DNA of 64,000 nucleotides from an uncultured bacterium (GTDB taxonomy: Bacteria > Electryoneota > AABM5-125-24 > Hatepunaeales > Hatepunaeaceae), in contig CAZVKN010000002.1 of the NCBI GenBank assembly GCA_964627035.1, positions 11,206 to 75,205 of the forward strand. Direction: 5' to 3'. A model generated the notes under the pieces. That model ran no database searches. It worked only from the letters and a program-made list of their open reading frames with translations, and was not told the origin of the DNA. A program made the position numbers and the translations under genes. This document shows, in pieces, positions 15,557 through 43,839 of this stretch; within the stretch, counting starts at the first letter, position 1, and every line of letters begins with the position of its first letter.

Positions 15557-15940
15557 TCAGATCAGCTTCGCCACCAGTTCCAGCAGCTCATTCTGGTCAA
15601 TAGGCTTGGCGAGGTAGCCGTCGGGAGGCGGGACCTGCTTGCGGGATGATATGAATGTTTTAAAATCCGCTGAAACACCGGTGATGATCACCACCGGGAT
15701 AGACTTCAAGTCCTCATCCTCGCGAACTGTGCGATAGAATTTGACACCGGACATCTCCGGCATCGTGATATCAAGTGTAATAAGATCAGGCTTGGTTTCA
15801 CGCACTTTAACCAGCCCCTCGTCACCGTTCTCGGCGATAATCGTGTTGTAACCGTTGTCTTCCAATAAACTCGAAAAATAGGTCTGGGTATCCGGCTCGT
15901 CGTCAATTATTAATATGGTTTGCTTTTCAGCCATTTGCAA
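15557..15940 (-). CDS. Single-domain response regulator (CheY-like receiver)
   Basis: LIIDDEPD, phospho-acceptor LDITMPEMSG, IITG, and K in LAKP. The C-terminal PPPDGYLAKP motif is shared with the receiver fused to the HdrD-like protein. Confidence 0.85.
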   Translation of the reverse strand: MQMAEKQTILIIDDEPDTQTYFSSLLEDNGYNTIIAENGDEGLVKVRETKPDLITLDITMPEMSGVKFYRTVREDEDLKSIPVVIITGVSADFKTFISSRKQVPPPDGYLAKPIDQNELLELVAKLI

Positions 15941-15980
15941 TTCCTCTAATATTCTATTTGGTATGCTTTTCTATAAGAAT

Positions 15981-16012
15981 GCCTGAGAGTAGCTGCAGTG
16001 CTACCCTCAGGC
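15981..16012. terminator. 12-bp stem hairpin (GCCTGAGAGTAGC-TGCAG-GCTACCCTCAGGC) downstream of the minus-strand T9SS gene
   Basis: Near-perfect palindrome. Weak T tract on the minus strand. Confidence 0.3.
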
Positions 16013-16070
16013 AGGTAAAATACATATTTATGTCCGAACTTGCAACAGTCAAACGGATAAACGATTAGAC

Positions 16071-17351
16071 CTACTTTATCAGAATGCCCTTGATCACATC
16101 CGTCTTACTACCCGAATTCAGCCGTATGATGTACATACCGGAGTTCAGCGCGCGAGTGTCCAGCCTGATGCTGTGACTCCCCGCAGACATCCGCCCACCA
16201 GTAGCTTCCATCACCAAGCTGCCGTTGATGTCGAACAGTGACAGATTGACATCGCTTGCACGATCCAGCCTGAATGAAACGGTTGACATCGGATTGAATG
16301 GATTCGGGTAGAGCGACACAATGCCAAATTCGGATGGAGTATTGTCATCCTCAGCCACATTGAGCAGATCCCTCATTCTGACCTGTACATCCAACTCCAT
16401 CTCACCGTTGAATGTGAACTCCGCCGCTTCAACAGCTTGATAACCGTCAGCAGTTACCGTTAACATGAACTGTTCATGTGGAAAACGGTATAGCTCAAAC
16501 ATACCGTCTTCGTCTGAGACGACTTCGATATTGGCGTCAACTACGGTTATTGTTGCGTTCTCAATCGGAGCATTGGTGTCGTCGTCCACCACCTGACCGT
16601 AAACGCTGCCGCCGTATCCGGCGAGATCTGCGAGGACATCCTCAAGAAACTCTGCACGGTCAAAGTCATGCTCGTTGTTCAACCCAAGGAAACAGATGCT
16701 CTGACTATACGCTCTGTATGCTCCTCCACCGTCGAAGAATACGCTGCGGACATAGTCTTCATTGCAGACGAAAACCGGATGTGATCCATCAAGTCCGCGG
16801 ATTCTGTCCGGCACGCCTCCGACCATCGCCATGTCCTCGTTTGTGTAGTATCCAAAGGCGCGTTCACCCAATTGACCCTCCTCATCGGCGTCAACACGGG
16901 TGATTTCGTTGTCTTCACCTACTTCTACAAATTCGATGTTGAAATAGTCGAACAAATCTGTTTCATGGTGTTGACCGCACCAGTCGTTGCCCTCGATGTA
17001 CAGACCGCGGTTCAATTCAACAAATTCAATTAAGGTCTCTTGGCTCTCCCGGTCAATCTGACCGGCTTCTATTCCGCCACCTCAATCGGGGCAGGAGAAA
17101 CCAAGCAGCACCATGATGACATCGTATTGACTCAAGTCGTCCGGGAGCGCTTCGTCGTGATCGTACTCGATCTCAAGTTGATCGAGCGTCTGCATCACGG
17201 CTGAAGACGAATTCAGCCTTTCTCCCAGGACAGGATCGTCAATCGGTAGTGGGTTATCGTTCACCCAAACGAACAGATCATAAGCGGATACACTCCCTGC
17301 CATGAGCAGAACGCAGAGCAGCAATCCCAAAATATATCCTGTTTTTTTCAT
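16071..17351 (-). CDS. T9SS C-terminal-domain secreted protein (carboxypeptidase-regulatory-like middle) interrupted by one in-frame TGA (17082-17084). Possible Sec/recoding site or a pseudogene.
   Basis: Track ORFs 17082..17351 (signal peptide MKKTGYILGLLLCVLLMAGSVSA) and 16071..17015 (TTG start, no signal peptide, Por_Secre_tail C-terminus) share one frame and are separated only by TGA. Read-through gives ...GFSCPD-U-GGGIEAGQIDRE... Confidence 0.5.
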
Positions 17352-17366
17352 TATACCTCCTGTAAG

Positions 17367-18821
17367 TTAATTGGAAACAGCCATCGTTTGGACATGTTTC
17401 CTTGGAATTCTCACAATAAATCGTGTACCTTTATCTACCTCTGACTCAAGATCTATTGAACCCTTATGAGCCTTTGCAATCTTGTGTGCAATAAACAGTC
17501 CCAAACCTGTACCTTCAGTACCTTTCGACGAAAAGAACAGGCTGAATGCCTTCTCCCGTGTTTCCTGTTCCATTCCGATGCCGTCATCCTGAACCTCAAA
17601 CCGGACATGATCCACTTCACCGACTGCCCTTAACACCACCCGATGAGCCTCCTGTTTGTTGTCAATCCGGCAGGCGTCAAGCGAATTCTCCATCAGATTC
17701 ACTAACAGCGAGCGGATCGCTTTGTCGTCAGCTTCAAACTCACCAATATCCATGTTGATCTCTTTTGTAAGCTCAACTCCAAGTTCATCAGCTTTGTCTT
17801 TCGTTAATGTATATACATCGTTGGCGATGCTGTCACCTGACAGCAGCTCCCAATCCGGTTCTCGGTCTTTGGCATAGTAGAGAATATCGAGCACCATGCT
17901 GCGGACGCGGGTCACGTTGCGTAAGACAATCTCCCACCCCTGCTCGACACGGGCAGGATTATTCTTTTTCAGACCGTTATTGACGAGATAGATACCACCA
18001 TCCAATCCGTTGAGGATGCCCTTGATTCCGTGTGAGATAGTGCTTATCAACAGACCGATAGACGTTAACTGATCCTGCAATTCGCGAATCTGTGTGATGT
18101 CGGTGCTGATCTCAATGACCTGTTCAATCTCACCCTCAGCATTGCGCAACGGAGATGTGTAAACCAGCACATTCATCATCTTGCCATCAATTGAGGAGAC
18201 TACCTCTTCGTGGACATGCATCTCTCCATCCTGAAAAGTCTGACGAACGATGCATGGAACACATTCCTCTGTGCGATGTTTGTATGCCTCATAACATTTA
18301 GCACCATAGTTTGGTCCAAATGCTTCACGGTGGAGCCGATTGGCGTGGACGATCCGCATATCACGATCCTGAATCGAAATAAAACAAGGAACCTCCTCAA
18401 ATAATAGCCGGTATTTCTCCTGACTCTCTTTGTTCTGCTTCTGGAGCTGTTTTATCTCAGTGATGTCGGTTGACATCTCCATGACCGCCGTAATCTCACC
18501 GGCTTTATTGTAAATCGGAGTGGTGTAAACAATGACTGACACTTCACTGCCGTCAAGACAACGGACATGCTCTTCGCTTGAATGCCGTTGACCGTCCCTG
18601 AAAGTCCTCTCTACCGGACAGACTTCACACTTTTCAGGACGATTCTTGTACACCTGATAGCAGTATCGCCCCTCATAAGATCCGAAATCCTCAACAAACC
18701 ACTTGTTTGCACTGATAACTTTCAGGTTGCGATCCTGCACGGTCAAGTAGCAAGGCATTGACTCGAAATATTGTTGGTACGGCAGTTCCATGTCAGTCTC
18801 CCAAAAAGACGATAGGAGCAT
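17367..18821 (-). CDS. Sensor histidine kinase with two duplicated Cys-rich PAS-like domains, HisKA and HATPase_c
   Basis: Two repeats with C-x10-C-x2-C (CYQVYKNRPEKCEVCP; CYEAYKHRTEECVPC). H-box ISTISHGIKGIL. G-boxes GTGLGL. Confidence 0.85.
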   Translation of the reverse strand: MLLSSFWETDMELPYQQYFESMPCYLTVQDRNLKVISANKWFVEDFGSYEGRYCYQVYKNRPEKCEVCPVERTFRDGQRHSSEEHVRCLDGSEVSVIVYTTPIYNKAGEITAVMEMSTDITEIKQLQKQNKESQEKYRLLFEEVPCFISIQDRDMRIVHANRLHREAFGPNYGAKCYEAYKHRTEECVPCIVRQTFQDGEMHVHEEVVSSIDGKMMNVLVYTSPLRNAEGEIEQVIEISTDITQIRELQDQLTSIGLLISTISHGIKGILNGLDGGIYLVNNGLKKNNPARVEQGWEIVLRNVTRVRSMVLDILYYAKDREPDWELLSGDSIANDVYTLTKDKADELGVELTKEINMDIGEFEADDKAIRSLLVNLMENSLDACRIDNKQEAHRVVLRAVGEVDHVRFEVQDDGIGMEQETREKAFSLFFSSKGTEGTGLGLFIAHKIAKAHKGSIDLESEVDKGTRFIVRIPRKHVQTMAVSN

Positions 18822-18845
18822 TTAGCTCCTATCATCTAAGATTAA

Positions 18846-20594
18846 TTATGCCAACTCGAGAATTTTCCGAGCGTTGAGCAGCAGAGTATCTTCATTGACA
18901 GGTTTGTTCAGATATCCCTCCGGTGGTGGTATGGATGTGCGATCATAGATCAATTTACGCAATTCGGGTCTGCCTGTTATGATACAGATTTTGATACTTT
19001 CAGTCTCAGGATTCTTCTTTAACGCTTCATAAACCTTCGTCCCGTCCGTTCCGGGCATTGACAGGTCAAGCGTGATCATATCAGGTATTTCCTTTGACGC
19101 TATTTCAATTGCTGAATCACCGTCCGCTGCTTCAAGCACCGTAGCACCGTTGTCTTCCATTACTGCGGTGAAGAAGGTGCGGATGTCCGGTTCGTCATCA
19201 ACAACCAATATTCTGAATCCGGCGAGTGCTTCTGCAACTGCCTCTTCTTTAATTTCCGGAACGGCAACAACAACCGGTTTCTCAGGAATGACAATTGCAT
19301 TTGCAACCAGATTGACCAATTGAGTAACTTCCATGCCCAGCTCGTAATGTTTTATGCAGTCTGCTAAACCATCCACGCAGTTGTGACATGATGTCACGAC
19401 AATTTCAGCACCTGTCGCCTTCAACTGGTCAGCTTTGACCTTTGCCGATTTCAGACGACGCGGCGTATATTCCGACATTGACATCGCACCACCGCCACCT
19501 GTGCAGCAGTAGTTCTCCGCTCGATTCGGGTACATCTCTGTGAAGTTCTCACAGACAAGGTTTAGTAGTTCACGAGGCTCTTCAAACAAGCCGCAGCTTC
19601 GTGCGTTGTTGCATGAATCGTGAAAGGTGACCGGAATTTTGTTCTTAGATTTATCAACTTTAATCCTGCCTTCTTTAATGTAACGGAGCATCGTATCTAC
19701 GGAACTTTCCATTACAAAATTCACATCAACCTGACCCCAGTTCTGTCCTTCGCAGCGTGTCGAACGGTAACCGTGACCACACTCGGAGATGACCAGCGTC
19801 TTACCTTTCAACTCTTCAACCTTGTCATACAGCCTCTTCGCAACCGCACCACCGAGGTCGTCATCACCGGAGAACAGCCCGAAGTTGGTCATGTCCCAGC
19901 CCTCACTCGGCATCGTCCAGTTCTCGCCTGCAATATGGAAAATCTTTGCTGCATCTGCAATTGTGCGAGGGTCATATTTTGCCTCGCGGGGATTGATTGA
20001 ATATACTATGTCGGCGTTCATCTTATCAATAGGTATTACCGCAGTCTTATCCTCCAAATCCTCCTGCAGCTCTTCGGACATCCAATCAAGTGTATCAAGA
20101 TAATCCTCTTTTAACACACCCATCTGATTGCCGATCTCCCATTGATCCTTACTCACAACCGCCACACCCTCCGGCATGACTCCAACAGACACCAAAAGTC
20201 CGCGAGTCATCCGGTTGTAAGTTGCAAAGTCAACACCCATCGGGCAGTTGATTGAGCAACGTCGGCAGTTGGTGCACTTACCGAAAACCGTATCTTTAAT
20301 TTCTTCAAGTTCTTCATCGGTATAGACACTCTTTGCTTTGACCCACCATGGGATCACCTGCCCGGTCCAGTCGTGATGGCGCTTGAACAGCTTCCGCAGA
20401 ATGTCTCCTTTATATGCCGGGGCGTATGTCGGATCCCCCGGATTTGCCTGAACGTAATGACAAGACTCGGTACACATCCCACAGTGAACACAAGCCAGCA
20501 ATGAACCTGCAATCTGGCGGTTCAGCTTTTTACTCATCCGTTCCAGTACTTTCTCAGCTTTATATGATCTGGCTTTAGCCATTGTTGTCTCCAT
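18846..20594 (-). CDS. HdrD/DsrK/GlpC-like Fe-S oxidoreductase (2x[4Fe-4S] plus 2 CCG domains) fused to a C-terminal response-regulator receiver domain
   Basis: CVHCGMCTESCHY and CTNCRRCSINCPMG ferredoxin motifs. CCG motifs CGHGYRSTRCEG, CCTGGGGAMSM and TSCHNCVDGLADC. C-terminal REC: ILVVDDEPD, ITLDLSMPGTDG, IITG, NKP. Confidence 0.8.
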   Translation of the reverse strand: METTMAKARSYKAEKVLERMSKKLNRQIAGSLLACVHCGMCTESCHYVQANPGDPTYAPAYKGDILRKLFKRHHDWTGQVIPWWVKAKSVYTDEELEEIKDTVFGKCTNCRRCSINCPMGVDFATYNRMTRGLLVSVGVMPEGVAVVSKDQWEIGNQMGVLKEDYLDTLDWMSEELQEDLEDKTAVIPIDKMNADIVYSINPREAKYDPRTIADAAKIFHIAGENWTMPSEGWDMTNFGLFSGDDDLGGAVAKRLYDKVEELKGKTLVISECGHGYRSTRCEGQNWGQVDVNFVMESSVDTMLRYIKEGRIKVDKSKNKIPVTFHDSCNNARSCGLFEEPRELLNLVCENFTEMYPNRAENYCCTGGGGAMSMSEYTPRRLKSAKVKADQLKATGAEIVVTSCHNCVDGLADCIKHYELGMEVTQLVNLVANAIVIPEKPVVVAVPEIKEEAVAEALAGFRILVVDDEPDIRTFFTAVMEDNGATVLEAADGDSAIEIASKEIPDMITLDLSMPGTDGTKVYEALKKNPETESIKICIITGRPELRKLIYDRTSIPPPEGYLNKPVNEDTLLLNARKILELA

Positions 20595-20698
20595 TATATG
20601 TTAAGGAGTGCTGCAATCGGGCTTGTATCGCCCGGCGTCGCGGTTGAGACAACCACGACTACAATTCTGTATTTTTTCAGCAATCTCGAATTTTAATT

Positions 20699-21370
20699 TT
20701 ATCCGCGTACAATAGGAAATACACCTCGATGTCCCATGCTCTTCCCGAAGTAGTAACGGGTAAAGGGATAATATAGATAGTGCGATATTTTGCTGAACGG
20801 GACGTAAACCAGGAAGAATGCGGTCAGCATGAAATATACCATCAACACAGCTTCACCTGCAGCGAGGTTGTTCGGTGTCGCCCAAAAAGCGAACCAGAAC
20901 CAAACTGTCAACAGCAGCAGCGAGAAATAATCATCCGGAGTGCTAATCGCTCTCATGTAAACATCAATAGCACGCCTTATTATTCGATACACACCGACAA
21001 TGAAAGCCGCACCTATAATTATCTGGAAAATCAGACTCAGAAGAGCAGGTAATGGATTCTCTCCATAACCGTACGGTATAACGAATGACAGAAGAATTGC
21101 AGCAGTCACCCCGAGATGAAACAGGACGAATTGAAAATAGATAAAGAAATGCTTGCGGGTGCTCTCCATTGCCCACGGCATCCCGACATTGCCCCAACTA
21201 TACAGTATCCCTTTTCGTGGGGTCGTGTTGCTAAGACCTGTTTTCGCTTGTCGCTCCTTACCGGCTTTGAATCTGGTAAACCAGTAGATTCTAAATATGT
21301 AAACACACGCCATGAAGACCAAAGCAGACTCTTGTAGTATGTGCTCTGAAAATTTCAGAAGGTCACTCAT
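20699..21370 (-). CDS. NarI/HdrE/DsrM-like membrane cytochrome b, probable quinol-interacting partner of the HdrD-like protein
   Basis: About 5 TM helices with conserved His (FVLFHLG, SKISHYLYYPFTRYYF resembling the NarI-family C-terminal PF..H motif). Immediately upstream of the CCG protein. Confidence 0.55.
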   Translation of the reverse strand: MSDLLKFSEHILQESALVFMACVYIFRIYWFTRFKAGKERQAKTGLSNTTPRKGILYSWGNVGMPWAMESTRKHFFIYFQFVLFHLGVTAAILLSFVIPYGYGENPLPALLSLIFQIIIGAAFIVGVYRIIRRAIDVYMRAISTPDDYFSLLLLTVWFWFAFWATPNNLAAGEAVLMVYFMLTAFFLVYVPFSKISHYLYYPFTRYYFGKSMGHRGVFPIVRG

Positions 21371-21400
21371 TATTGTTCCTTATTGTATGGAAATTGTTTT

Positions 21401-21928
21401 CTAAGATTGAAGTTCGGCTTCAAACGGCTTGTACTCCCGGTTGTCCATAGTAGCAATGATAACCTCCTCCAAACCGCTGCCGTTGGTAAGATGTGAGCGA
21501 AACTCTTCGATCATTATTTTTGCACAGGTCGGGAGTGGAATCCCGTAAAATCCGGTACCCATCGGCGGGAAAGCAACTCTTTTAATCCCTTTCTCGTCTG
21601 CTCGTTTCAGGCTGCTTTTGATGGTGCTGTGTAGTTTTAATTCACTGTCCTGTTCCTGAAATTTAGGACCGTTTGCGTGGATGATATAGTCAGCTTTCAA
21701 TTCTCCGGCGGAAGAGACCACCGTTTCTGTGACATTAATCGGATCGAAGGTTGCAAGTTCCTTTTTAATTGAAGGACCTCCCCGCATTGAGATGGCATTT
21801 CCAAATCCACTGCCAAGTTCAAGATTGGATTGAGCATAAAAAACAATTGCCTCGACGTTTAGATTGGTTAAATCTCCCATGATCAGACGGACCGTGCTGT
21901 TTTTTATTTTGATAGATTTTTCCGGCAT
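21401..21928 (-). CDS. Macro-domain protein (ADP-ribose / O-acetyl-ADP-ribose processing)
   Basis: LIMGDLTNLNVEAIVFYAQSNLELGSGFGNAISMRGG matches the macro-domain N-terminal signature. Confidence 0.7.
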   Translation of the reverse strand: MPEKSIKIKNSTVRLIMGDLTNLNVEAIVFYAQSNLELGSGFGNAISMRGGPSIKKELATFDPINVTETVVSSAGELKADYIIHANGPKFQEQDSELKLHSTIKSSLKRADEKGIKRVAFPPMGTGFYGIPLPTCAKIMIEEFRSHLTNGSGLEEVIIATMDNREYKPFEAELQS

Positions 21929-21947
21929 GTATTACCCTTGTGAACAG

Positions 21948-22163
21948 TTAATTTTTTTCATCGTCCCAAATACCGTTTTTTTGATGCTGACGCTTCTCAC
22001 GCTCTGCCATTGAGCGGAGTTTGTAAGCGGCGTCTCGCAGCGTGCCGTAGAGGATACCGCAGCTTTTATCCTGACGAGCGGCATCTCCGGCATCAGCCAA
22101 AACCATCATCTCGCGGGACACCTGCAAGACCTTGGTGATATTTTTGTTATATGGTTTTGACAT
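21948..22163 (-). CDS. Small hypothetical protein (71 aa), first gene after the sigma54 promoter
   Basis: ATG start. No recognisable domain. Confidence 0.4.
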   Translation of the reverse strand: MSKPYNKNITKVLQVSREMMVLADAGDAARQDKSCGILYGTLRDAAYKLRSMAEREKRQHQKNGIWDDEKN

Positions 22164-22186
22164 AGATCAAATGAGTTTGATAGTTC

Positions 22187-22217
22187 TGTTTGAGCAATTA
22201 TGCACAAACCGTGCCAA
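22187..22217 (-). promoter_or_regulatory. Candidate sigma54 (-24/-12) promoter: TGGCAC-GGTTT-GTGCA on the minus strand
   Basis: Plus-strand GCACAAACCGTGCCA at 22202-22216 is the reverse complement of TGGCACGGTTTGTGC. It lies about 25-55 nt upstream of the 71-aa ORF start and downstream of the sigma54 activator gene. Confidence 0.5.
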
Positions 22218-22460
22218 ACAGAGAACAGCACGAGCCATCCAATTATCTTTCTATTATTATAGCACTTAATTAAATTAATAGAATGAGTAAACGGAAGCTT
22301 TCAACTTAATTGTGAAACATAATATTACGAATCAAAATTGATGTAGATCCGTTGCGACAGTAACTATATGGTTATATAAAGAATAGGAGTTGTATCAAAG
22401 ATAGGAAGAGTGAAAAAATGTACTCTTATAATTTCTGTACAGAGATGTATTACGTAACAG

Positions 22461-24191
22461 TTAACGGTTTCCGAGATAACGGTACAGTGTTGTTCTGCTG
22501 ACACCGAGCAGTTTTGCAGCTTTAGCTTTATTGCCACCTGTACGCCGTAATGCGGAAGAGACATCGTCATCTGTAAGTAGCTGTGGACGACCCGGTCTGA
22601 CTTGGGCAGTAGTCAGGGATTCGCACAATTCCGGTGGAAGGTGCTTGATGTCAATGATATTTCCGTGACACTTTATCAAGGCAAACTGAACGGCATTGCT
22701 CAGCTCACGGATGTTGCCGTGCCAGTCGTAACTGATCAGTTGTGAGGTCGCTTCAGGAGTTATCTCAGGAACTATATTCCCACTGTTGGCTGTGTACTTC
22801 TGCAGGAAATGATCAATGAGAAGCGGTATGTCGCTTCGTCTTTCTCGTAGCGGGGGTAGGTTAATAGGAATGACGGCAAGACGGTAGTATAGATCCTCTC
22901 TGAACAGGTTCTGCTGTGTCAACTGCCGCAGGTCACGGTTGGCGGCACAGATAACCCGTACGTCAACCTTTTTGGTTTGCTCACCCCCGACAGGTTCAAA
23001 CGTCTTTTCCTGCAGTACGCGCAGCAGCTTGACTTGCATTGCCGGAGATATTTCTCCAATCTCATCAAGGAAGATAGTACCCTTGTCAGCAAGCTCAAAC
23101 CGACCTTTTTTATCACGGATTGCACCGGTGAAGGCTCCGCGCACATGACCAAACAGCTCACTCTCGAGTGTGCCCTCCGGCAGCGCACCACAGTTGACGG
23201 GGACAAAAGGCTTATTCCTTCTTGCGCTCGATTTGTGCAGGGCGTTTGCCACCATCTCTTTGCCTGTTCCGCTCTCACCCTGAATCAATATCGGCACATT
23301 GACATCCGACAGTTCGCGAATTGCATCGAAAACTTTCCGTATGGAGATGTGACGACCGACGATCCCGTGGGTGTCACGACTCATCTCGAGTTGCCTTCGC
23401 AATCGAGAAACTTCAGTTACATCACGAAACACTACCAATGCGCCCATTACAATGTCATGTGAGTCGTTAATAGTAATCACCGACATCTCCAGCTCACACT
23501 CCTGTCCGTTCCTCTTTGTAAACGTCTGTGGGTAGCGGAGTCTGCTGTGCATCTGTATGTTGTCTATACAAAATGAGCAGTCACCCCCGCAAAACCGACC
23601 AGGAAACACCTCATGGCAGTCGCGCCCAATGACGTCAGATTCACTGAATCCGGTGATTGCCTGAGCAGCCTGATTAAAAAAATATATCTTTCGGTCAAGA
23701 CCGTGAGCCATCACTCCGTCAGTGAGGTTGTTGATCAGAGATTCCAGTGTGATTCGCGTTTGGCGGATAGCATCGAGAAAACCGTGCTCAAACATACTGC
23801 CGACTCTCGACTGTATATCATCACGGATAGCGCAGAACATTGCTTTTATCTGCTCAGGTGGCACGTTCTGTTGTTTACCGGGATCAATCAGTGACCAGTG
23901 AATTCGGGGAGGCGAACCGGGGAATGTGGGACAGATCTCTTTTGCATGGTCGCACAGAGTTATCACAATGTCAAAAGGTACAGACTCAAGCTCCGGTATC
24001 GAGTAATCCACATGTGAGGCGACATCCAGCCCCAGATCGTTCATCACATCATGAACAATCGGATCAAGCTCCTGCTGTTTGTCACCTGCGCAAAACATCT
24101 GCATATCCGGCTTACAAAACTGCCCTGCAAAAGCAGCAGCCATCTGACTCCGACCCGAGTTACCGGTACATGCAAACAGGATTCTGAACAT
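22461..24191 (-). CDS. Sigma54-dependent transcriptional activator with an N-terminal ArsC/LMW-PTP-like domain and a Cys-rich PAS domain
   Basis: N-terminus ILFACTGNSGRSQMA (CX5R P-loop as in Trx-coupled ArsC/LMW-PTP) with LCDHAKEICP. PAS carries CHEVFPGRFCGGDCSFC. AAA+ GESGTGKE, ELFGH and GAFTGA motifs. C-terminal HTH LLGVSRTTLYRYL. Confidence 0.85.
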   Translation of the reverse strand: MFRILFACTGNSGRSQMAAAFAGQFCKPDMQMFCAGDKQQELDPIVHDVMNDLGLDVASHVDYSIPELESVPFDIVITLCDHAKEICPTFPGSPPRIHWSLIDPGKQQNVPPEQIKAMFCAIRDDIQSRVGSMFEHGFLDAIRQTRITLESLINNLTDGVMAHGLDRKIYFFNQAAQAITGFSESDVIGRDCHEVFPGRFCGGDCSFCIDNIQMHSRLRYPQTFTKRNGQECELEMSVITINDSHDIVMGALVVFRDVTEVSRLRRQLEMSRDTHGIVGRHISIRKVFDAIRELSDVNVPILIQGESGTGKEMVANALHKSSARRNKPFVPVNCGALPEGTLESELFGHVRGAFTGAIRDKKGRFELADKGTIFLDEIGEISPAMQVKLLRVLQEKTFEPVGGEQTKKVDVRVICAANRDLRQLTQQNLFREDLYYRLAVIPINLPPLRERRSDIPLLIDHFLQKYTANSGNIVPEITPEATSQLISYDWHGNIRELSNAVQFALIKCHGNIIDIKHLPPELCESLTTAQVRPGRPQLLTDDDVSSALRRTGGNKAKAAKLLGVSRTTLYRYLGNR

Positions 24192-26617: not shown

Positions 26618-28813
26618 TTAACGATCTTTCAGCGAAACGGTAAACAGGGAGCCATTACCGACTTCACTGGACACTCTTAACCGATACCCTAAAGCATGAC
26701 ACAACGCTTTAGCGGTTGTCAAGCCTAATCCTGCACCATCCGAATTTGCAGATTGTCCGCTGCCTCGATAGAACGGTGAGAATATTGACAACATCTCATC
26801 AGAGCTTATACCACACCCGTTGTCCTGTACTTCTACTCTGATCGGTGTTGATCCCGAGCCTCCGGTGACCACCCGAACCGTGACAGATCCCTGATCTGTG
26901 TAGGACAGAGCATTATCAATTAGTGGCAGCAACAGTTGAAACAGCTTGTCTCTGTCAGTTTCAATTGAATCAATATCATCCGGCAGCTCGACGTTCAGTG
27001 ACACACCTTTGCTGTTTGCTGCCCCTTGAGAATAATCCACCGCTTCTCTGATTAGATCAGTGAGTTGAACAGGTTTGATGTCCAGTTCTATCTCTCCAGA
27101 CTCGATCTCAATGATCTCTGCAATTTCCTTCAAAATGCCAATCGCTCTGCGGTCATTGGCTGACAAACGATTGAGAGCTTGTATATCGTGTCTTGCCAGA
27201 CGAAACAGACAATGTTTCCATAGAATATCACTGTCCGTTACGCTCGATTTTAAGGATGATTGCAGGATAGAAATCAGATCAGTGACCATCTTGAGGTTTG
27301 ATCGGTTGCTGTTAATTGCCGTATCCTTTTCCTTGACCACGCTGTCCATATCCTGTTTTTGCTCAGTAACATCTTCGGAAACAGTTAGCAGGTAGTCAGG
27401 TCCGTCATCATCCTTGATTAATATCTTGCTTGTCTTAAAGATGCGAGAACCTTTGTGCGGAGTTTCGATGATTTCATCCTCAACTTCTACAAGTTCTCCG
27501 GAATTTATAGCTTGCCGGTCAGTGGCTACCGAACACTCTGCTTCCTCCTCGCGGAACAATTGATAATCATTTCTCCCGATGACATCATCACGTTTCAATC
27601 CGAGCAGCTCTTCGCCTCGCTTGTTCAATTGAATATATGACAGATCTTCCACGTCCTTGACGGTTATCAAATAGGGAAATTTATCAACAACTGATTTGAA
27701 GAATCGCTGCGCTTGTTCCTGTTCGGCTGACCTGTATCGTGTCTCGGATATGTCACGAGCCACTGCTATCCGGCTGACAAGCTTCTTGTTTTCAAACTCA
27801 GCAGATTCTTTGACCTCAATCCAGATTGTTTTCCCATCTTTCCCGCTTAATTCGACCTCATATTCGGTGAATTTCTTTCTTGGCTTGTTGAGAAAAATTC
27901 GGTTATCGGTTCGATCTGTCAGGCAATCTCTATAGCTCGCTTTCCATTCATCTATCGAATATCCGGTTATAGTTTCGACTGAAGGTGAGACAAACAACAC
28001 TTCACCGTTGTCATCTCGCTTCATGATCACATCGGTCACGCTGCTCAGAATCCCCTGATACTCATCAACCTTCTTCACCAGCCGTCTGTTTGAGTTATTG
28101 AGGGCTTCATCCATCAGACGCTGTTCGGTCATCTCGCGAGCCACACAGACGATTCTCTCGACCTCGCCTTCTTCGTTTTTAACGGTTGAAGTTGACATCG
28201 AGACGTATATCTTTTTCTGATCCTTGTTGATGAATGTTGTTTCAATTCCATCAAGAGAATTATGCTGAGCAATTCCTGCGACGCCAAAGGCTTCATTGGC
28301 ATCCTCATCAAGCAACACTTCCAGATTCAGTCCGGTCAGCTCACTCTCCTTGTAGCCTAATGCGGCGGTAACCACCTCATTGATCGCAAGGATGGTGCCA
28401 GACTCATTGCAGATGACAACCATGTCGGTCAACGATTTCAGCATATTGTCATTATACCGCATTGACTGAGCGGATGCGGACAGAACGTCCATCACTCCGT
28501 TCAGACCGAGAGCGATTGCATCGAAAATGTAGTCCTGACCCCGCACTTCAACACGCTTGGAGAAATCCATGCTTGACATTGCCATCACAACATCGAGCAG
28601 TTCGATCATGCTCTCCTCAATTCTGAAGCGGTCATTCTTTTGGAGTGACAGGTTTTCAGAGAGGTGGCTCAGCTTTCGCTTGATGCGGCTGAACTTGCTC
28701 TCGTCATCAATCAGATCGCTTCTGACTTTCAGGTTATCAGCGGTCAGGCTGTCAATCATCTGACAGATTTCGTCGAAGTTGCTGCCGGGTTGGGTCGTAT
28801 CAAACTCGTCCAT
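26618..28813 (-). CDS. Multi-PAS sensor histidine kinase
   Basis: Several PAS repeats, a HisKA-like region and a C-terminal HATPase_c (GAGLGL). Confidence 0.75.
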   Translation of the reverse strand: MDEFDTTQPGSNFDEICQMIDSLTADNLKVRSDLIDDESKFSRIKRKLSHLSENLSLQKNDRFRIEESMIELLDVVMAMSSMDFSKRVEVRGQDYIFDAIALGLNGVMDVLSASAQSMRYNDNMLKSLTDMVVICNESGTILAINEVVTAALGYKESELTGLNLEVLLDEDANEAFGVAGIAQHNSLDGIETTFINKDQKKIYVSMSTSTVKNEEGEVERIVCVAREMTEQRLMDEALNNSNRRLVKKVDEYQGILSSVTDVIMKRDDNGEVLFVSPSVETITGYSIDEWKASYRDCLTDRTDNRIFLNKPRKKFTEYEVELSGKDGKTIWIEVKESAEFENKKLVSRIAVARDISETRYRSAEQEQAQRFFKSVVDKFPYLITVKDVEDLSYIQLNKRGEELLGLKRDDVIGRNDYQLFREEEAECSVATDRQAINSGELVEVEDEIIETPHKGSRIFKTSKILIKDDDGPDYLLTVSEDVTEQKQDMDSVVKEKDTAINSNRSNLKMVTDLISILQSSLKSSVTDSDILWKHCLFRLARHDIQALNRLSANDRRAIGILKEIAEIIEIESGEIELDIKPVQLTDLIREAVDYSQGAANSKGVSLNVELPDDIDSIETDRDKLFQLLLPLIDNALSYTDQGSVTVRVVTGGSGSTPIRVEVQDNGCGISSDEMLSIFSPFYRGSGQSANSDGAGLGLTTAKALCHALGYRLRVSSEVGNGSLFTVSLKDR

Positions 28814-28849
28814 TTGAGATGTCCTGTGACATTAAATTGTATTTAACAA

Positions 28850-28960
28850 GTGATAAAGTAAGAAAGTGGGAAAGGAAGCAGGGAAGAATTTGATCAATGC
28901 TTCATCTTTCTTGTTTTTTACCTTCTCACCTTCTCACTTTCTTACTTACTTACTTACTTT
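28850..28960. repeat. Inverted-repeat element (AAAGTAAGAAAGTGGGAAAGGAAG ... CTTCTCACCTTCTCACTTTCTTACTTACTTACTT)
   Basis: Same GTAAGAAAGTGAGAAAG family as 677-754 and 49130-49160. Sits between two minus-strand kinase genes. Confidence 0.6.
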
Positions 28961-28991
28961 ATCAATGTTCGGATGCAATGATCGGTGCAGA

Positions 28992-31900: not shown

Positions 31901-32306
31901 AGAGAGGTACTTTGCTGCCGTTATCATAGAATTCGCAGAATTGCTCAAGCAGGTATTTGCCGTCATCAAAGGTATGGATTTCATAATCAAAAGGATCGGA
32001 AGCTTCAGCGGCGAAACCGAGATCGTCCTTACGCTCAAAGATTATCCGGTAATATTCGCGCAGGCTTTGATCGTCATCCGCTATGAAGATAGTTTTATTC
32101 AACCCATTCCTCAAGGTGTCGTAAAAGGAGCGTTTGCCACCTATTGACAGTTGAATCAATGTGTGGTGAAGCGGAAAGCTTAGATTTTTTAGAGATGCGC
32201 ATGTTGAAAGATAATAAAATATAGTATCATATTGCAAGATATAGTTCTGATTTAGTAATTTTGTGATTGGGTGATTGAGTTCCTTCTTCCTTTCCAAACT
32301 CGTCAA
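28992..32306 (-). CDS. Hybrid sensor histidine kinase (REC-PASx3-HisKA-HATPase-REC-REC)
   Basis: N-terminal REC. PAS repeats. H-box LARMSHELRTPLNSVIGF. GTGLGLAISK. Two C-terminal receivers (LILIIDDEPD; LLIIDDDPD). Confidence 0.85.
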   Translation of the reverse strand: MTSLERKKELNHPITKLLNQNYILQYDTIFYYLSTCASLKNLSFPLHHTLIQLSIGGKRSFYDTLRNGLNKTIFIADDDQSLREYYRIIFERKDDLGFAAEASDPFDYEIHTFDDGKYLLEQFCEFYDNGSKVPLCILDLRMPIMDGLKTASALRKIDPEVIIIIVTAYQDVASTEIRKSLQQDIYYVKKPLDEEEFYSLVDSLLKNWNSVMNMRSFQEEIERTRNYLQNITDSMGEGICVLDHDGYVTFMNPTAEKLLGYDKNELIGKELYDNVWFYSGQKASGSFTYSKNDLFIRKDGTPISIFCTVTPMQQGDFTGSVIVFRDITQQKTTEDALRDSEEMLRDFFDNASDLIQAVAADGEIQYVNSTWLKTLGYEENEVIGNSIFSILHGSCLEHCRQAFGEILSGGATRRLEAKFVTKNGQVVEVEGSVNCRFEDGEPISTRGIFRDMTARNRTEKALKENEERYRTIFESFQDLYYQTDLKGYLTIISPSVRVCGYEPEEVLGCPVTDFYHNPADRNVLMRKLLKDHVVKDYELLMEFKDGTVVDASLNAKMLLDENGRPCGVQGVMRDITERKVAEHLLELAKEEAEAANRAKSDFLARMSHELRTPLNSVIGFANILLKNKAENLREQDLTYLDRIAVNGTHLLELINDLLDISKIEAGRMELEIGTIEPDQLFEGIIPQFEQMVRSKDIYLKLKMPDNIQPVGTDEAKLKQVLINLIGNAIKFTEEGGITVKLITDPTDGQLMRIEVSDTGIGIAPDRMEAIFAPFQQADTSTSRKYGGTGLGLAISKSLCKLMGYRLKVSSEFNKGTTFSIVLDLNDAEISELDEGEEHVLKLESTEKVVGGEMQSADHLILIIDDEPDSRFLLKHYVEEFGCKALTAQSGKHGLKIAREHKPDLITLDLLMPEVSGWETLKSLKADPTLRHIPIVVVSIVATEKRGMILGAVDFLNKPIQREELLNVLRRNLTGDRNKLLIIDDDPDAQEIIISCLEDEKMQITTALNGKIALDAMYKQIPDLIILDLMMPVMDGMSFLKTIRNDEKQFQHIPVVVVTSKDLTTDEMLRLKEQTSAVLSKDDCFNDDLKRKLRSVIRGLDRKQI

Positions 32307-32420
32307 CTTGCAAACTTAAATCGTGCTTTGGCGTGTGACGCAGTTCATTTGGTAGTGATTTATCCAATAGTTAAATTATCAAGTTGGTTGTTGCGCACAC
32401 TCTATTCTAACGGGGCAGTC

Positions 32421-43782: not shown

Positions 43783-43839
43783 GATTAAACCTTTACCTTC
43801 GTCACACTGCTGCAACATGGGTAGATGGACTGAAAATTT

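What the first reader, a model, noticed from the sequence alone, without database searches (positions are those of the whole stretch)
18846..21370. HdrD/DsrK-like CCG Fe-S oxidoreductase fused to a response-regulator receiver, next to a NarI-like cytochrome b
Membrane-bound DsrMK/HdrDE-type modules are normally respiratory electron-transfer units that are regulated transcriptionally. Here the catalytic CCG subunit carries a complete receiver domain with all phospho-acceptor residues (DD, D in LDLSMP, T in IITG, K in NKP). A NarI-like cytochrome b gene sits directly upstream, and a PAS histidine kinase gene directly downstream. This would place phosphorylation directly on a quinone-linked disulfide/redox enzyme, i.e. 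post-translational two-component control of a redox module. Alternatively the redox module itself could be the sensor input of a phosphorelay. The orphan receiver at 15557-15940 shares the unusual C-terminal PPP(D/E)GYL(A/N)KP motif. That suggests a second substrate of the same kinase.
Basis: partly seen in the sequence, partly recalled or inferred. Interest (0 to 1): 0.75.

Follow-up and report, generated by a model that had tools for sequence, protein, structure and literature searches.

The report
Receiver-tagged membrane iron-sulfur redox enzyme cassette
A respiratory-type membrane redox enzyme (one-heme anchor plus iron-sulfur subunit) has a phosphorylation "receiver" switch fused to its catalytic subunit and its own sensor kinase next door, and this uncharacterised gene set recurs almost unchanged in bacteria of more than ten phyla.

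Summary
ORF 20594..18846 (- strand, 582 aa) is a DsrK/HmcF/TmcB-type protein: two 4Fe-4S motifs, the SECGH cysteine and one CCG motif. A variable ~35-residue linker joins it to a complete receiver (REC). It is not a frameshift: 79/79 related loci carry the fusion, and all cluster cysteines and the REC residues D466, D467, D510, T/S540 and K564 are invariant.

It belongs to a conserved cassette that I did not find described in the papers searched: Macro-domain protein, 5-helix membrane protein, FeS-CCG-REC, soluble 2xPAS kinase with Cys clusters, usually a single-domain REC. Tblastn confirmed relatives in 402 of 185,579 species genomes. The best 80 are MAGs labelled with more than ten phyla; the FeS-CCG core is 77-86% identical to the window's.

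- **Regulation here:** an ArsC-like/PAS sigma-54 activator, a sigma-54 promoter-like site and a 71-aa one-Cys protein lie upstream.
- **"Orphan" REC:** it is the normal fifth gene, displaced by a 1.4-kb insertion.
- **Membrane partner:** NarI fold, but only two invariant His, so probably one heme b, as in mycobacterial EtfD.
- **Nearest non-REC relatives (42-43% identical):** these are linked or fused to DsrC.

Best reading (inferred): a quinone-linked protein-thiol oxidoreductase switched by phosphorylation. The rival, that the enzyme is the sensor, remains open.

The parts
22461..24191 (-). Sigma-54 enhancer-binding activator without a receiver domain. Domain order: N-terminal LMW-PTP/ArsC-like domain, PAS domain with four invariant Cys (C192, C201, C205, C208), AAA+ sigma-54 interaction domain, Fis-type HTH.
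   Evidence: Pfam Sigma54_activat 1.8e-69, LMWPc 4.5e-10, PAS_9 7e-12, HTH_8 2e-10. NCBIfam arsC_pI258 family 5e-25. Tblastn finds it upstream of the cassette in 19 of the 86 fetched loci (about 17 distinct). All of these also carry the small protein, which marks 24/69 loci. Cys conservation.
22202..22216 (-). Sigma-54 (-24/-12) promoter-like element, TGGCACGGTTTGTGC, about 40 nt upstream of the small ORF.
   Evidence: one mismatch to TGGCAC-N5-TTGC. An equivalent GG-N10-GC element lies 52-59 or 92 nt upstream of the small ORF in 12 of the 24 loci that have this ORF. The background rate is 0.026 per 480 nt.
21948..22163 (-). Conserved 71-aa protein with invariant Cys35 (SCG[VI]LYG) and His60. 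It is the first gene of the sigma-54-type operon. No family assignment.
   Evidence: No Pfam or NCBIfam hit. Conserved in 24/69 loci. Not DsrC-like by hhalign (probability 0.2).
21401..21928 (-). Macro-domain protein (ADP-ribose-binding type), a core cassette member.
   Evidence: Pfam Macro 9e-25. NCBIfam 'ADP-ribose-binding protein' 5e-34, below its cut-off. Present upstream of the membrane gene in 70/71 loci. The motifs GxGFGxAI and GTGxYG are conserved.
20699..21370 (-). Five-helix membrane anchor of NarI/TmcC/EtfD fold with only two invariant His (H85 in TM2, H197 just after TM5). Probably binds one heme b near the cytoplasmic face.
   Evidence: NCBIfam TmcC 1.6e-12 and HmcE 1.4e-8. AF2 pLDDT 79. 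Foldseek best matches are NarI and EtfD. His conservation; topology. Present in 76/76 loci. EtfD has five TM helices and one bis-His heme b next to a menaquinone site (PMC13083937).
19323..20594 (-). Catalytic FeS/CCG core of the fusion (residues 1-424). Two ferredoxin-type 4Fe-4S motifs (C35/38/41/45 and C107/110/113/117), SEC272GH274, and a CCG motif (C328...C363C364...C403xxC406).
   Evidence: All of these Cys are invariant in 81 sequences. The T/GECGH and single-CCG signature of DsrK/HmcF/TmcB is described in PMC10861901. This part is 77-86% identical across phyla.
19215..19322 (-). Variable Pro/Glu/Ala/Val-rich linker (residues about 425-460) between the enzyme core and the receiver.
   Evidence: No conserved positions in the 81-sequence alignment.
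18849..19214 (-). C-terminal receiver (REC) domain of the fusion, residues 461-582. Phospho-acceptor D510, acidic pocket D466/D467, T540, K564. Carries the PPPEGYLxKP variant of the beta5 motif.
   Evidence: Pfam Response_reg 3.1e-18. The best NCBIfam receiver family is DVU0259_DivK, 6e-22. Key residues are invariant. The fusion is present in 79/79 loci.
17367..18821 (-). Soluble histidine kinase: PAS1 (C54, C65, C68 invariant; C24 partly conserved), PAS2 (C146, C176, C187, C190), H-box S-H264-G-I-K-G, and HATPase_c.
   Evidence: Pfam. The closest solved kinase is ThkA, 3a0r. Cys and His conservation. The H-box lacks the E/DxxT/N phosphatase motif. Present in 71/71 loci.
15557..15940 (-). Single-domain receiver (127 aa), a paralogue of the fused receiver. 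It is normally the gene directly after the kinase.
   Evidence: Pfam Response_reg 8.9e-23. DVU0259_DivK family 2e-30. 40% identical to the fused REC. D13, D14, D57, T/S87 and K112 are conserved. It follows the kinase in 51/65 loci and in the 92% relative.
16071..17351 (-). Lineage-specific insertion, not part of the cassette: an 89-aa ORF plus a 314-aa T9SS-sorted protein. It is followed by a strong terminator-like hairpin at 16013..15980.
   Evidence: Por_Secre_tail 7.7e-12. The insertion is absent from the 92%-identical relative L089/L090. Hairpin with a 14-bp stem.

Best explanation
What it is (confidence about 0.9). The window carries a self-contained, widely conserved operon for a membrane-anchored redox module of the DsrMK / TmcBC / HmcEF kind. 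The anchor is a five-helix protein that probably holds one heme b. The cytoplasmic subunit has two 4Fe-4S clusters, one CCG (noncubane-cluster) site and the catalytic SECGH cysteine. That subunit carries a flexibly tethered, phosphorylatable receiver at its C-terminus. The operon also encodes a dedicated soluble kinase with Cys clusters in both PAS domains, a Macro-domain protein and, usually, a second single-domain receiver.

How it most likely works (inferred; confidence about 0.45).
1. The heme b anchor exchanges electrons with the quinone pool.
2. The electrons pass through the two 4Fe-4S clusters to the CCG/Cys272 site.
3. That site reduces or oxidises a protein-bound thiol, disulfide or persulfide. 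The substrate would be DsrC-like in some lineages. In this lineage the 71-aa one-Cys protein is a candidate.
4. The kinase reads cytoplasmic redox state through its Cys-cluster PAS domains and phosphorylates D510 of the tethered receiver.
5. The phosphorylated receiver changes how the catalytic domain meets its substrate or partner, so that electron flow is switched after translation.
6. The kinase lacks the usual phosphatase motif. The free receiver would therefore serve as a competing acceptor, or phosphate sink, that sets the response time.
7. In this window, transcription of the whole set is additionally controlled by a redox-type (ArsC-like plus four-Cys PAS) sigma-54 activator acting on a -24/-12 promoter-like site.
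For: Identity of the module:
- Domain hits.
- Invariant cluster cysteines, the SECGH motif and the CCG motif, matching the signature of DsrK/HmcF/TmcB given in PMC10861901.
- The membrane partner has a NarI/EtfD fold and two invariant His. EtfD is a solved precedent for one bis-His heme b next to a menaquinone site feeding an FeS/CCG wire (PMC13083937).

Reality and conservation:
- More than 3000 homologues; the best 120 all have the CCG+REC architecture at 74-92% identity.
- 402 species genomes have a tblastn-confirmed relative; the best 80 are MAGs labelled with more than ten phyla.
- Synteny: membrane gene 76/76, fused REC 79/79, kinase 71/71, Macro 70/71, free REC 51/65.

The receiver is functional:
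- All five signature residues are invariant.

The enzyme is the likeliest output:
- The invariant core (Macro, anchor, fusion, kinase) contains no other output domain, and the free REC is dispensable in 14/65 loci.

Thiol-protein substrate:
- The nearest non-REC relatives (42-43% identical) carry DsrC fused at the same C-terminal position, or sit between DsrC genes, a CoADR-rhodanese-type gene and a sulfite-reductase-type gene.
- The Bacillota relative uses the same two-His anchor, 42% identical to the window's.
- 5/69 cassette loci have DsrC genes directly upstream of Macro, two of them with the two-Cys DsrC C-terminus.

Sink idea:
- The H-box is S-H-G-[IL]-K-G, with Gly at H+4 in 68/68 sequences.

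Regulation:
- A sigma-54 element at a fixed distance in 12/24 small-protein loci, against a background of 0.026 per 480 nt.
Against: - No experiment exists on any member, and no paper on the cassette was found.
- The direction of information flow (kinase to enzyme, or enzyme to phosphorelay) cannot be read from sequence.
- A C-terminal receiver is the layout of hybrid kinases and relays, not of most enzyme-type response regulators.
- The linker is long and unconserved, so no fixed REC-enzyme interface is evident.
- The only structure prediction of the fusion failed (pLDDT 34).
- No DsrC-like gene is present in the 64-kb window.
- The small Cys protein occurs in only 24/69 loci, so the substrate in this organism is unknown.
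- EtfD shows that CCG modules can serve plain electron transfer from a protein partner rather than disulfide chemistry.
- The role of the Macro protein is unexplained.
Confidence: 0.45

Rival explanations
1. The redox module is the sensor, not the target. The heme b / FeS / CCG chain equilibrates with the quinone pool, or with a DsrC-like thiol pool. Its redox state then controls how well the tethered receiver accepts phosphate from the kinase, or returns it. Because the kinase lacks a phosphatase motif, the fused receiver acts as a redox-gated phosphate sink. The single-domain receiver, which competes for the same kinase, carries the output to an unknown target.
For: - The C-terminal position of the receiver matches hybrid-kinase and relay layouts.
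- Two paralogous receivers share one kinase.
- The kinase H-box lacks E/DxxT/N.
- Both receivers are closest to the DivK-like DVU0259 family of single-domain regulators.
- A one-heme anchor close to the cytoplasmic face would suit sensing as well as catalysis.
Against: - The free receiver is missing directly after the kinase in 14/65 loci, although it can lie elsewhere, as in L025.
- No downstream target is encoded in the cassette.
- The catalytic signature (SECGH, the full CCG motif, 77-86% identity) is kept as strictly as in a working enzyme.
- The kinase has its own Cys-cluster PAS inputs, so a second sensor is not strictly needed.
Confidence: 0.3
2. The receiver is mainly a docking tether that brings the kinase and the enzyme together. 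The CCG site could then reduce or oxidise the Cys clusters of the kinase PAS domains, or of another cassette protein. This would couple kinase activity to the quinone pool, as quinones do for ArcB and RegB.
For: - Invariant 3-4-Cys clusters in both kinase PAS domains and in the PAS domain of the sigma-54 activator.
- The flexible linker.
- In the sister clade the domain fused at this position is the substrate itself, DsrC.
Against: - Pure docking would not require all five phospho-chemistry residues to be invariant.
- There would then be no output of the kinase other than the free receiver.
- The idea rests entirely on inference.
Confidence: 0.1
3. The receiver is a degenerate pseudo-receiver with a structural role only, and the module is an ordinary, constitutively active TmcBC/DsrMK-like respiratory unit.
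For: Pseudo-receivers fused to non-signalling proteins are known (established knowledge). Some variant cassettes have a degenerate REC-like tail on an HTH_17 regulator.
Against: - D466, D467, D510, T/S540 and K564 are invariant in 81 sequences.
- A kinase gene follows in 71/71 loci.
Confidence: 0.04
4. The fusion is an assembly or frameshift artefact joining a CCG gene and a receiver gene, or the N-terminal part is a soluble GlpC/LutA-type enzyme unrelated to the membrane protein.
For: None found.
Against: - The same single ORF occurs in 79/79 independent loci from many assemblies, and the identical protein occurs on six contigs.
- The best family matches are HmcF/TmcB/DsrK (E 1e-102 to 1e-73). 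LdhH-type matches cover only the CCG end, at E 9e-14.
- The membrane gene is adjacent in 76/76 loci.
Confidence: 0.01

Closest known systems
DsrMK module of DsrMKJOP (menaquinol:DsrC-trisulfide oxidoreductase)
   Same: - Membrane cytochrome b plus a cytoplasmic subunit with two 4Fe-4S clusters, one CCG noncubane-cluster motif and the conserved Cys in T/GECGH (PMC10861901).
- DsrC-like genes accompany some cassette loci and the sister clades.
   Different: - Scores below the DsrK equivalog cut-off (245 against 400 bits).
- No DsrJOP.
- The anchor has two rather than four invariant His.
- A receiver is fused to the catalytic subunit, and a dedicated kinase and a Macro protein are present.
- No DsrC in this window.
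TmcBC / HmcEF modules of the Tmc and Hmc complexes of Desulfovibrio
   Same: - Best-scoring families for both subunits: HmcF 3.8e-102, TmcB 1.5e-93, TmcC 1.6e-12, HmcE 1.4e-8.
- Both receivers are closest to the family named after DVU0259. By its locus-tag number that gene lies four tags before tmcA, DVU_0263.
   Different: - All scores are far below the equivalog cut-offs.
- No periplasmic cytochrome c subunit (TmcA/HmcA) and no TmcD.
- In Desulfovibrio the receiver is a separate gene; here it is fused.
Mycobacterial EtfD (PDB 9ojn)
   Same: - Closest solved structure for both parts: sequence E 2.8e-14 for the FeS/CCG part and a Foldseek match for the anchor.
- Five TM helices, a single bis-His heme b beside a menaquinone site, then an FeS wire ending in CCG clusters (PMC13083937).
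   Different: - EtfD is one polypeptide with two CCG domains, one of which holds a linear 3Fe-4S cluster.
- It takes electrons from ETF to menaquinone in an aerobe.
- It has no receiver and no kinase.
HdrDE heterodisulfide reductase of methanogens
   Same: Cytochrome b anchor plus an FeS/CCG catalytic subunit that reduces a disulfide with electrons from a membrane quinone-like carrier (PMC10861901).
   Different: - HdrD has two CCG motifs; this protein has one.
- The substrate CoM-S-S-CoB is not expected in these bacteria.
- HdrDE has no signalling domains.
FeS-CCG-DsrC fusion proteins of Chloroflexota and unfused relatives in Bacillota (the sister clade found here)
   Same: - 42-43% identical FeS/CCG core.
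- The same gene order, anchor followed by CCG protein.
- The Bacillota anchor is 42% identical to the window's and keeps the same two His.
   Different: - The C-terminal appended domain is DsrC, the presumed substrate, instead of a receiver.
- No kinase and no Macro gene.
Enzyme-type response regulators (CheB, PleD, RpfG) and quinone-sensing kinases (ArcB, RegB)
   Same: Phosphorylation of a receiver controls an attached enzyme (CheB type), or quinone-pool redox state enters a two-component pathway (ArcB/RegB type). Both points are established knowledge.
   Different: - In those regulators the receiver is N-terminal and the enzyme acts on signalling molecules.
- In ArcB and RegB the quinone acts on kinase cysteines directly.
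- In the papers searched I found no receiver described as fused to a respiratory-type FeS/CCG subunit.

Membership tests
DsrK / HmcF / TmcB-type CCG iron-sulfur subunit | Two ferredoxin-type [4Fe-4S] binding motifs in the N-terminal part | tested here: met
   Fer4_8 1.2e-10. C35/38/41/45 and C107/110/113/117 are invariant in 81 sequences.
DsrK / HmcF / TmcB-type CCG iron-sulfur subunit | A single C-terminal CCG motif CXnCCGXnCX2C for a noncubane [4Fe-4S] cluster (PMC10861901) | tested here: met
   Pfam CCG 3.6e-13 at residues 322-406, one stretch only. C328-X34-C363C364(TG)-X38-C403-X2-C406 are all invariant. The sequence reads CCTG rather than CCG.
DsrK / HmcF / TmcB-type CCG iron-sulfur subunit | Conserved catalytic Cys in a T/GECGH motif, the remnant of the first CCG domain (PMC10861901) | tested here: met
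   The window has S-E-C272-G-H274. C272 and H274 are invariant in 81 sequences.
DsrK / HmcF / TmcB-type CCG iron-sulfur subunit | Score above the NCBIfam equivalog cut-off for HmcF, TmcB or DsrK (orthology) | tested here: not met
   342 against 750, 314 against 735 and 245 against 400 bits. It is a separate clade of the same superfamily, not an orthologue of any of the three.
DsrK / HmcF / TmcB-type CCG iron-sulfur subunit | Works with a DsrC-type protein substrate | tested here: inconclusive
   No DsrC in the window. DsrC genes lie directly upstream of Macro in 5/69 cassette loci, and DsrC is fused or adjacent in the nearest non-REC relatives.
NarI / DsrM / TmcC-type di-heme cytochrome b anchor | Sequence match to the family model (Pfam Nitrate_red_gam; NCBIfam TmcC/HmcE) | tested here: not met
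   No Pfam hit even at E 10. TmcC 47 bits against a cut-off of 240; HmcE 35 against 275.
NarI / DsrM / TmcC-type di-heme cytochrome b anchor | Five-helix NarI fold | tested here: met
   The AF2 model (pLDDT 79) has five TM helices. The nine best Foldseek PDB matches are NarI chains and EtfD, with probability 1.00, TM about 0.5 and E from 3e-3 to 4e-2.
NarI / DsrM / TmcC-type di-heme cytochrome b anchor | Four conserved His ligating two hemes b (His/His) | tested here: not met
   Only H85 and H197 are invariant. The DsrM-like paralogue found in neighbouring modules keeps six conserved His. The pattern fits the one-heme arrangement of EtfD, His78/His241.
Two-component receiver (CheY-like REC) domain | Pfam Response_reg above the gathering score | tested here: met
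   66.4 bits against 30.2 for the fused domain; 81 bits for the free receiver.
Two-component receiver (CheY-like REC) domain | Acidic pocket DD, phospho-acceptor Asp, Thr/Ser and Lys switch residues | tested here: met
   D466, D467, D510, T/S540 and K564 are invariant in 81 fusions. D13, D14, D57, T/S87 and K112 are conserved in 55 free receivers.
Two-component receiver (CheY-like REC) domain | Phosphorylated by a cognate histidine kinase | not testable with these tools
   A kinase with an invariant H264 is the next gene in 71/71 loci. Phosphotransfer itself needs an experiment.
DVU0259 (DivK-like) receiver family, NCBIfam NF045717 | Score above the family cut-off (160 bits) | tested here: not met
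   It is the best receiver family for both domains, but at 78 and 105 bits.
Sigma-54-dependent operon | A -24/-12 GG-N10-GC promoter element upstream, with an adjacent enhancer-binding protein | tested here: met
   TGGCACGGTTTGTGC at 22216..22202. The element lies at a conserved distance in 12/24 small-protein loci, against a background of 0.026 per 480 nt. The activator gene is at 24191..22461. Transcription itself was not tested.

The most novel reading that the evidence does not exclude
The cassette is a new kind of two-component input device. A short electron-transfer chain (quinone site, one heme b, two 4Fe-4S clusters, noncubane CCG cluster) is wired directly to a receiver domain. The redox poise of the quinone pool or of a protein-thiol/sulfur carrier would then be converted into phosphoryl flux, as a redox-gated phosphate sink or switch. 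The Macro protein would add an ADP-ribose/NAD-derived input. Such a device, conserved at about 80% identity in anaerobes of more than ten phyla, would be a general and so far unrecognised way of sensing respiratory state.
Probability: 0.25. Interest if true: 0.85.

Novelty: new variant of a known kind. Interest (0 to 1): 0.7.

Why it matters
DsrMK/HdrDE/Tmc-type modules are treated as respiratory hardware whose level is set by transcription. A receiver fused to the catalytic subunit, always with its own kinase, would be direct evidence that electron flow between the quinone pool and cytoplasmic thiol chemistry is coupled to phosphorylation signalling. Either the flow is switched by phosphorylation, or it is read out by it.

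The cassette is compact (four core genes) and extremely conserved. It is present in many uncultured sediment and groundwater lineages, including Zixibacteria, Calditrichota, Ignavibacteria, Gemmatimonadota, Acidobacteriota and Planctomycetota. Its proteins are currently named only 'response regulator', 'Fe-S oxidoreductase' or 'hypothetical'.

It offers a defined, expressible system for asking how redox enzymes and two-component signalling talk to each other. It also raises the question of what a Macro (ADP-ribose-binding) protein does in a redox module.

Tried and rejected
- **Structure of the fusion.** A single-sequence AlphaFold run gave pLDDT 34 and is unusable. The second job went to the membrane protein, so no model of the REC-enzyme arrangement exists.
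- **Membrane protein by sequence.** Pfam gave nothing even at E 10. The PDB sequence search gave only a chance hit. Its nature had to be shown through NCBIfam, the fold search and His conservation.
- **Small 71-aa protein.** No Pfam or NCBIfam family. I tested whether it is a cut-down DsrC; hhalign rejects this (probability 0.2).
- **Literature.** Seven of the eight full-text searches looked for the fusion, the cassette or the DVU0258-0263 genes. None found a description. The library misses many subscription papers, including the Pereira 2011 genome survey.
- **Frameshift or assembly artefact, and GlpC/LutA-type soluble enzyme.** Both rejected.
- **HTH_17 regulator as a DNA-binding response regulator.** The HTH_17 gene upstream of Macro in 15 loci has only a weak REC-like tail (E 5e-5, below the cut-off) without the DD pocket, plus a Cys-rich middle. 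I therefore do not count it as an output of the kinase.
- **Sigma-70 promoter scan.** It gave no more sites than shuffled sequence and was not used.
- **Cultured carriers.** I could not establish whether any cultured organism has the cassette.

Full report
**1. What is in the window**

On the - strand, the region 24191..15557 reads in this order:
- a sigma-54 activator (24191..22461);
- a 71-aa ORF (22163..21948);
- a Macro-domain protein (21928..21401);
- a 223-aa membrane protein (21370..20699);
- the 582-aa fusion (20594..18846);
- a 484-aa soluble histidine kinase (18821..17367);
- two unrelated genes (17351..17082, and 17015..16071, a T9SS-sorted protein);
- a 127-aa receiver (15940..15557).

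The fusion has these matches:
- Pfam Fer4_8 (residues 32-121), CCG (322-406) and Response_reg (462-572, 66 bits against a cut-off of 30);
- NCBIfam HmcF (3.8e-102), TmcB (1.5e-93) and DsrK (8e-73) over residues 11-439, all below the equivalog cut-offs.

The membrane protein has no Pfam hit. It matches NCBIfam TmcC (1.6e-12) and HmcE (1.4e-8).

**2. The fusion is real and belongs to a very conserved family**

- A search of 5.8 billion proteins returned more than 3000 homologues. The best 120 all have the FeS + CCG + REC architecture and are 74-92% identical over the full length. They are annotated only as 'response regulator' or 'Fe-S oxidoreductase'.
- A scan of one genome per species found 402 genomes with a tblastn-confirmed relative. 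The best 80 are all MAGs. Their labels include Zixibacteria, Calditrichota, Ignavibacteria, Acidobacteriota, Gemmatimonadota, Planctomycetota, Fibrobacteraceae, Thermodesulfobacteriota/Syntrophales, Oligoflexia and others, at 72-80% identity.
- In an exhaustive HMMER search of 1.84 billion 50%-identity cluster representatives, the fused family collapses to a single full-length representative plus fragments (P0121, 51% identical, same architecture). The receiver fusion is thus the hallmark of one tight clade.
- In an alignment of 81 members, 42% of positions are near-invariant (same residue in at least 97% of sequences).
  - This includes all eight Cys of the two 4Fe-4S motifs, C272 and H274 of SECGH, C328, C334, C363, C364, C403 and C406 of the CCG domain, and the receiver residues D466, D467, D510, T/S540 and K564.
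  - The ~35-residue linker has no conserved position.
- A frameshift artefact is excluded. The identical protein is also on six independent contigs.

**3. The cassette**

Counts below are from tblastn synteny over 81 non-redundant loci:

| Feature | Loci with it / loci where visible |
|---|---|
| Membrane gene directly upstream of the fusion | 76/76 |
| Fused receiver | 79/79 |
| Kinase directly downstream | 71/71 |
| Macro gene upstream of the membrane gene | 70/71 |
| Single-domain receiver right after the kinase | 51/65 |

- Identity to the window's proteins is 77-86% for the FeS/CCG core. It is only 53-75% for the fused receiver, 47-71% for the anchor (55-71% in all loci but one), 53-71% for the kinase and 42-64% for Macro.
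- In the 92%-identical relative, the receiver follows the kinase directly. The 89-aa ORF and the T9SS gene in this window are therefore a lineage-specific insertion. That insertion ends in a strong hairpin terminator-like site (16013..15980).
- The gene directly upstream of Macro varies by lineage among 69 loci:
  - the small one-Cys protein in 24, of which about 17 also show the ArsC-like/PAS sigma-54 activator upstream;
  - an HTH_17 protein with a Cys-rich middle and a weak REC-like tail in 15;
  - Rrf2 regulators in 11;
  - DsrC-like proteins in 5;
  - a Cys-rich MerR-like regulator in 3.
- In the window, a -24/-12 element (TGGCACGGTTTGTGC, 22216..22202) lies about 40 nt upstream of the small ORF. 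Equivalent elements lie at a fixed distance in 12 of the 24 small-protein loci, against a background of 0.026 per 480 nt.

**4. Anatomy of the parts**

*Catalytic subunit.* PMC10861901 states that DsrK, HmcF and TmcB share one CCG motif, CXnCCGXnCX2C, which binds a noncubane 4Fe-4S cluster. They also share a strictly conserved Cys in T/GECGH that is probably needed for disulfide reduction. The window protein has both, and both are invariant across the family.

*Anchor.*
- Hydropathy and an AlphaFold model (56-sequence alignment, pLDDT 79) give five TM helices. The positively charged loops place the N-terminus outside and the C-terminus inside.
- The best structural matches are E. coli NarI and M. 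smegmatis EtfD.
- Only H85 (inner third of TM2) and H197 (just after TM5) are invariant.
- H197 aligns with a conserved His of a di-heme-type DsrM-like paralogue that keeps six conserved His.
- EtfD is a solved precedent. It has five TM helices and one heme b on two His, 4-5 A from a menaquinone, feeding an FeS wire that ends in CCG clusters (PMC13083937). EtfD is also the best PDB sequence match of the FeS/CCG part (2.8e-14).
- I therefore read the anchor as a one-heme, EtfD-like quinone-interacting subunit. That is an inference; heme content is untested.

*Kinase.*
- It is soluble, and its closest solved relative is ThkA.
- H264 is invariant.
- PAS1 has C54-X10-C65-X2-C68, plus C24 in most members. 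PAS2 has C146 and C176-X10-C187-X2-C190. All of these except C24 are invariant. This suggests a metal or FeS site, but that is inference.
- The H-box is S-H-G-[IL]-K-G, with Gly at H+4 in 68/68 sequences. The E/DxxT/N motif, which established work links to HisKA phosphatase activity, is absent.

*Receivers.* The fused and free receivers are 40% identical and share the PPP(D/E)GYLxKP beta5 variant. Both are closest to the NCBIfam family named after DVU0259. By its locus-tag number, that Desulfovibrio vulgaris gene lies four tags before tmcA, DVU_0263.

*Macro.* The ADP-ribose-binding motifs are conserved. The canonical catalytic Asn/Asp positions appear to be substituted (my reading of the alignment, not a test).

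**5. Relatives that bear on function**

- The nearest full-length relatives without a receiver are 42-43% identical. One has the same core with a DsrC-like domain fused at the C-terminus, in the position of the receiver (P0127, PF04358 1.8e-15). This architecture is common in Chloroflexota. There the gene sits between a NarI-like anchor gene and a free DsrC gene (L087).
- An unfused relative in Bacillota (L088) lies in this gene order: DsrC, 206-aa anchor, CCG protein, CoADR/rhodanese-type reductase, DsrC, sulfite-reductase-like protein.
  - That anchor is 42% identical to the window's anchor and has the same two His.
- Within the receiver-fused family itself, five loci carry DsrC genes directly upstream of Macro. 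Two of them (L028, L084) have the two-Cys C-terminus ...C-X10-CV typical of DsrC.
- A second, unfused MerR + DsrM-like + DsrK-like module lies next to the cassette in about 15 loci, but not in this window.
- Together these results place the clade among DsrMK-type modules that act on DsrC-like protein thiols.
- No DsrC-like gene is present in the 64-kb window. The substrate in this organism is therefore open, and the invariant-Cys small protein is only a candidate.

**6. Mechanism**

Shown:
- a DsrK-type catalytic signature;
- an EtfD/NarI-fold anchor with two invariant His;
- a receiver with intact phospho-chemistry;
- an obligatorily linked kinase;
- a usually present second receiver;
- redox-type regulators upstream.

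Inferred (best explanation, about 0.45): the anchor and FeS chain connect the quinone pool to thiol/disulfide chemistry at the CCG/Cys272 site. The kinase senses cytoplasmic redox state and phosphorylates the tethered receiver, which switches the enzyme. The free receiver competes for phosphate, because the kinase lacks the phosphatase motif.

The main argument that the enzyme is the output is that the invariant four-gene core contains no other output domain, and the free receiver is dispensable in 14/65 loci.

The main rival (about 0.3) reverses the arrow. The enzyme's redox state gates the fused receiver as a phosphate sink, and the free receiver carries the output. The C-terminal position of the receiver, the DivK-like affinity of both receivers and the missing phosphatase motif fit this equally well.

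Minor rivals:
- the receiver as a docking tether, so that the CCG site acts on the kinase's Cys clusters (about 0.1);
- a pseudo-receiver (about 0.04);
- an artefact (about 0.01).

**7. Comparison and novelty**

It works like a DsrMK/TmcBC/HmcEF module. It passes the motif-level membership tests of the DsrK/HmcF/TmcB type, but it fails the equivalog cut-offs and the four-His anchor test. It is therefore a distinct clade, with an EtfD-like one-heme anchor.

No description of the receiver fusion or of the cassette was found in seven full-text searches. The library is incomplete, so an earlier mention in a subscription paper cannot be excluded.

I rate it a new variant of a known kind. The components are familiar; the hard-wiring of a respiratory-type FeS/CCG enzyme to a two-component pathway, with a Macro protein, is not.

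Interest is about 0.7. The cassette is real, widespread, extremely conserved, compact and experimentally approachable. The mechanism is still inference.

Noticed in passing
window 16071-17351 and 15980-16013 (- strand): A two-gene insertion (an 89-aa ORF plus a 314-aa T9SS-sorted protein with CarboxypepD_reg domains) sits between the kinase and the free receiver. It ends in a 14-bp-stem terminator-like hairpin just upstream of the receiver gene. The 92%-identical relative lacks the insertion. In this genome the free receiver may therefore be transcriptionally uncoupled from the operon.
   Followed up: partly
L025:2816-5898; also L005, L015, L037, L042, L044, L048, L049, L052, L053, L056, L068, L080, L081, L084: A second, unfused module lies next to the cassette in about 15 loci and is itself 61-73% conserved. 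It consists of a Cys-rich MerR-like regulator, a DsrM-like anchor of about 310-330 aa with six conserved His, and a 538-aa DsrK-like protein. It is absent from this 64-kb window.
   Followed up: partly
L087:5301-8057 and proteins P0127, P0391-P0470: A sister family, widespread in Chloroflexota/Dehalococcoidia, has the same FeS/CCG core fused at its C-terminus to a DsrC-like domain. It is flanked by a NarI-like anchor gene and a free DsrC gene, so an enzyme and its presumed substrate share one polypeptide.
   Followed up: partly
window 22461-24191 (- strand): The sigma-54 activator has no receiver. It has an N-terminal LMW-PTP/ArsC-like domain (CX5R P-loop CTGNSGRS; Cys at 8, 80 and 87 conserved in 12-14 of 16 sequences) followed by a PAS domain with an invariant C-X8-C-X3-C-X2-C cluster. 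This looks like a thiol/arsenate- or FeS-based redox input, and I did not find it described.
   Followed up: partly
window 17367-18821, residues 263-268; 70-sequence alignment: The kinase H-box is S-H-G-[IL]-K-G, with Gly invariant at H+4. The E/DxxT/N motif associated with phosphatase activity in HisKA kinases is therefore missing. Pfam also finds no HisKA domain.
   Followed up: partly
loci L001-L086 compared with window 18846-20594: The FeS/CCG core is 77-86% identical between MAGs assigned to more than ten phyla, whereas the neighbouring cassette genes are 42-75% identical. Either constraint is extreme (many protein contacts) or the cassette has spread horizontally fairly recently. Gene tree and species tree were not compared.
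   Followed up: no
L010:5863-6630 and 14 other loci (for example L017, L019, L021, L027, L029): In one cassette variant, the gene upstream of Macro is a protein of about 255 aa. It has an HTH_17/MerR-type DNA-binding domain, a Cys-rich middle region and a degenerate receiver-like tail that lacks the DD pocket.
   Followed up: partly
window 21401-21928 (- strand): The Macro protein keeps the GxGFGxAI and GTGxYG binding motifs. It seems to have Tyr/Gln/Ser and Gly where MacroD-type hydrolases have the catalytic Asn and Asp. It may therefore be a binder rather than a hydrolase. Its fixed place in a redox cassette is unexplained.
   Followed up: no
window 28386-28400 (- strand): A perfect TGGCAC-N5-TTGC match lies inside the 731-aa PAS histidine kinase ORF (28813..26618). 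The number of such matches in the window is no higher than chance (4 found, 4.1 expected).
   Followed up: no
window 26618-36521: Signalling genes are dense next to the cassette: a 731-aa multi-PAS kinase, a 1104-aa hybrid kinase with three receiver domains (32306..28992), and a 1416-aa adenylate/guanylate cyclase-AAA-TPR protein (32271..36521). Several T9SS-sorted proteins, including a C25 peptidase at 43818..40096, point to an FCB-group-like organism.
   Followed up: no
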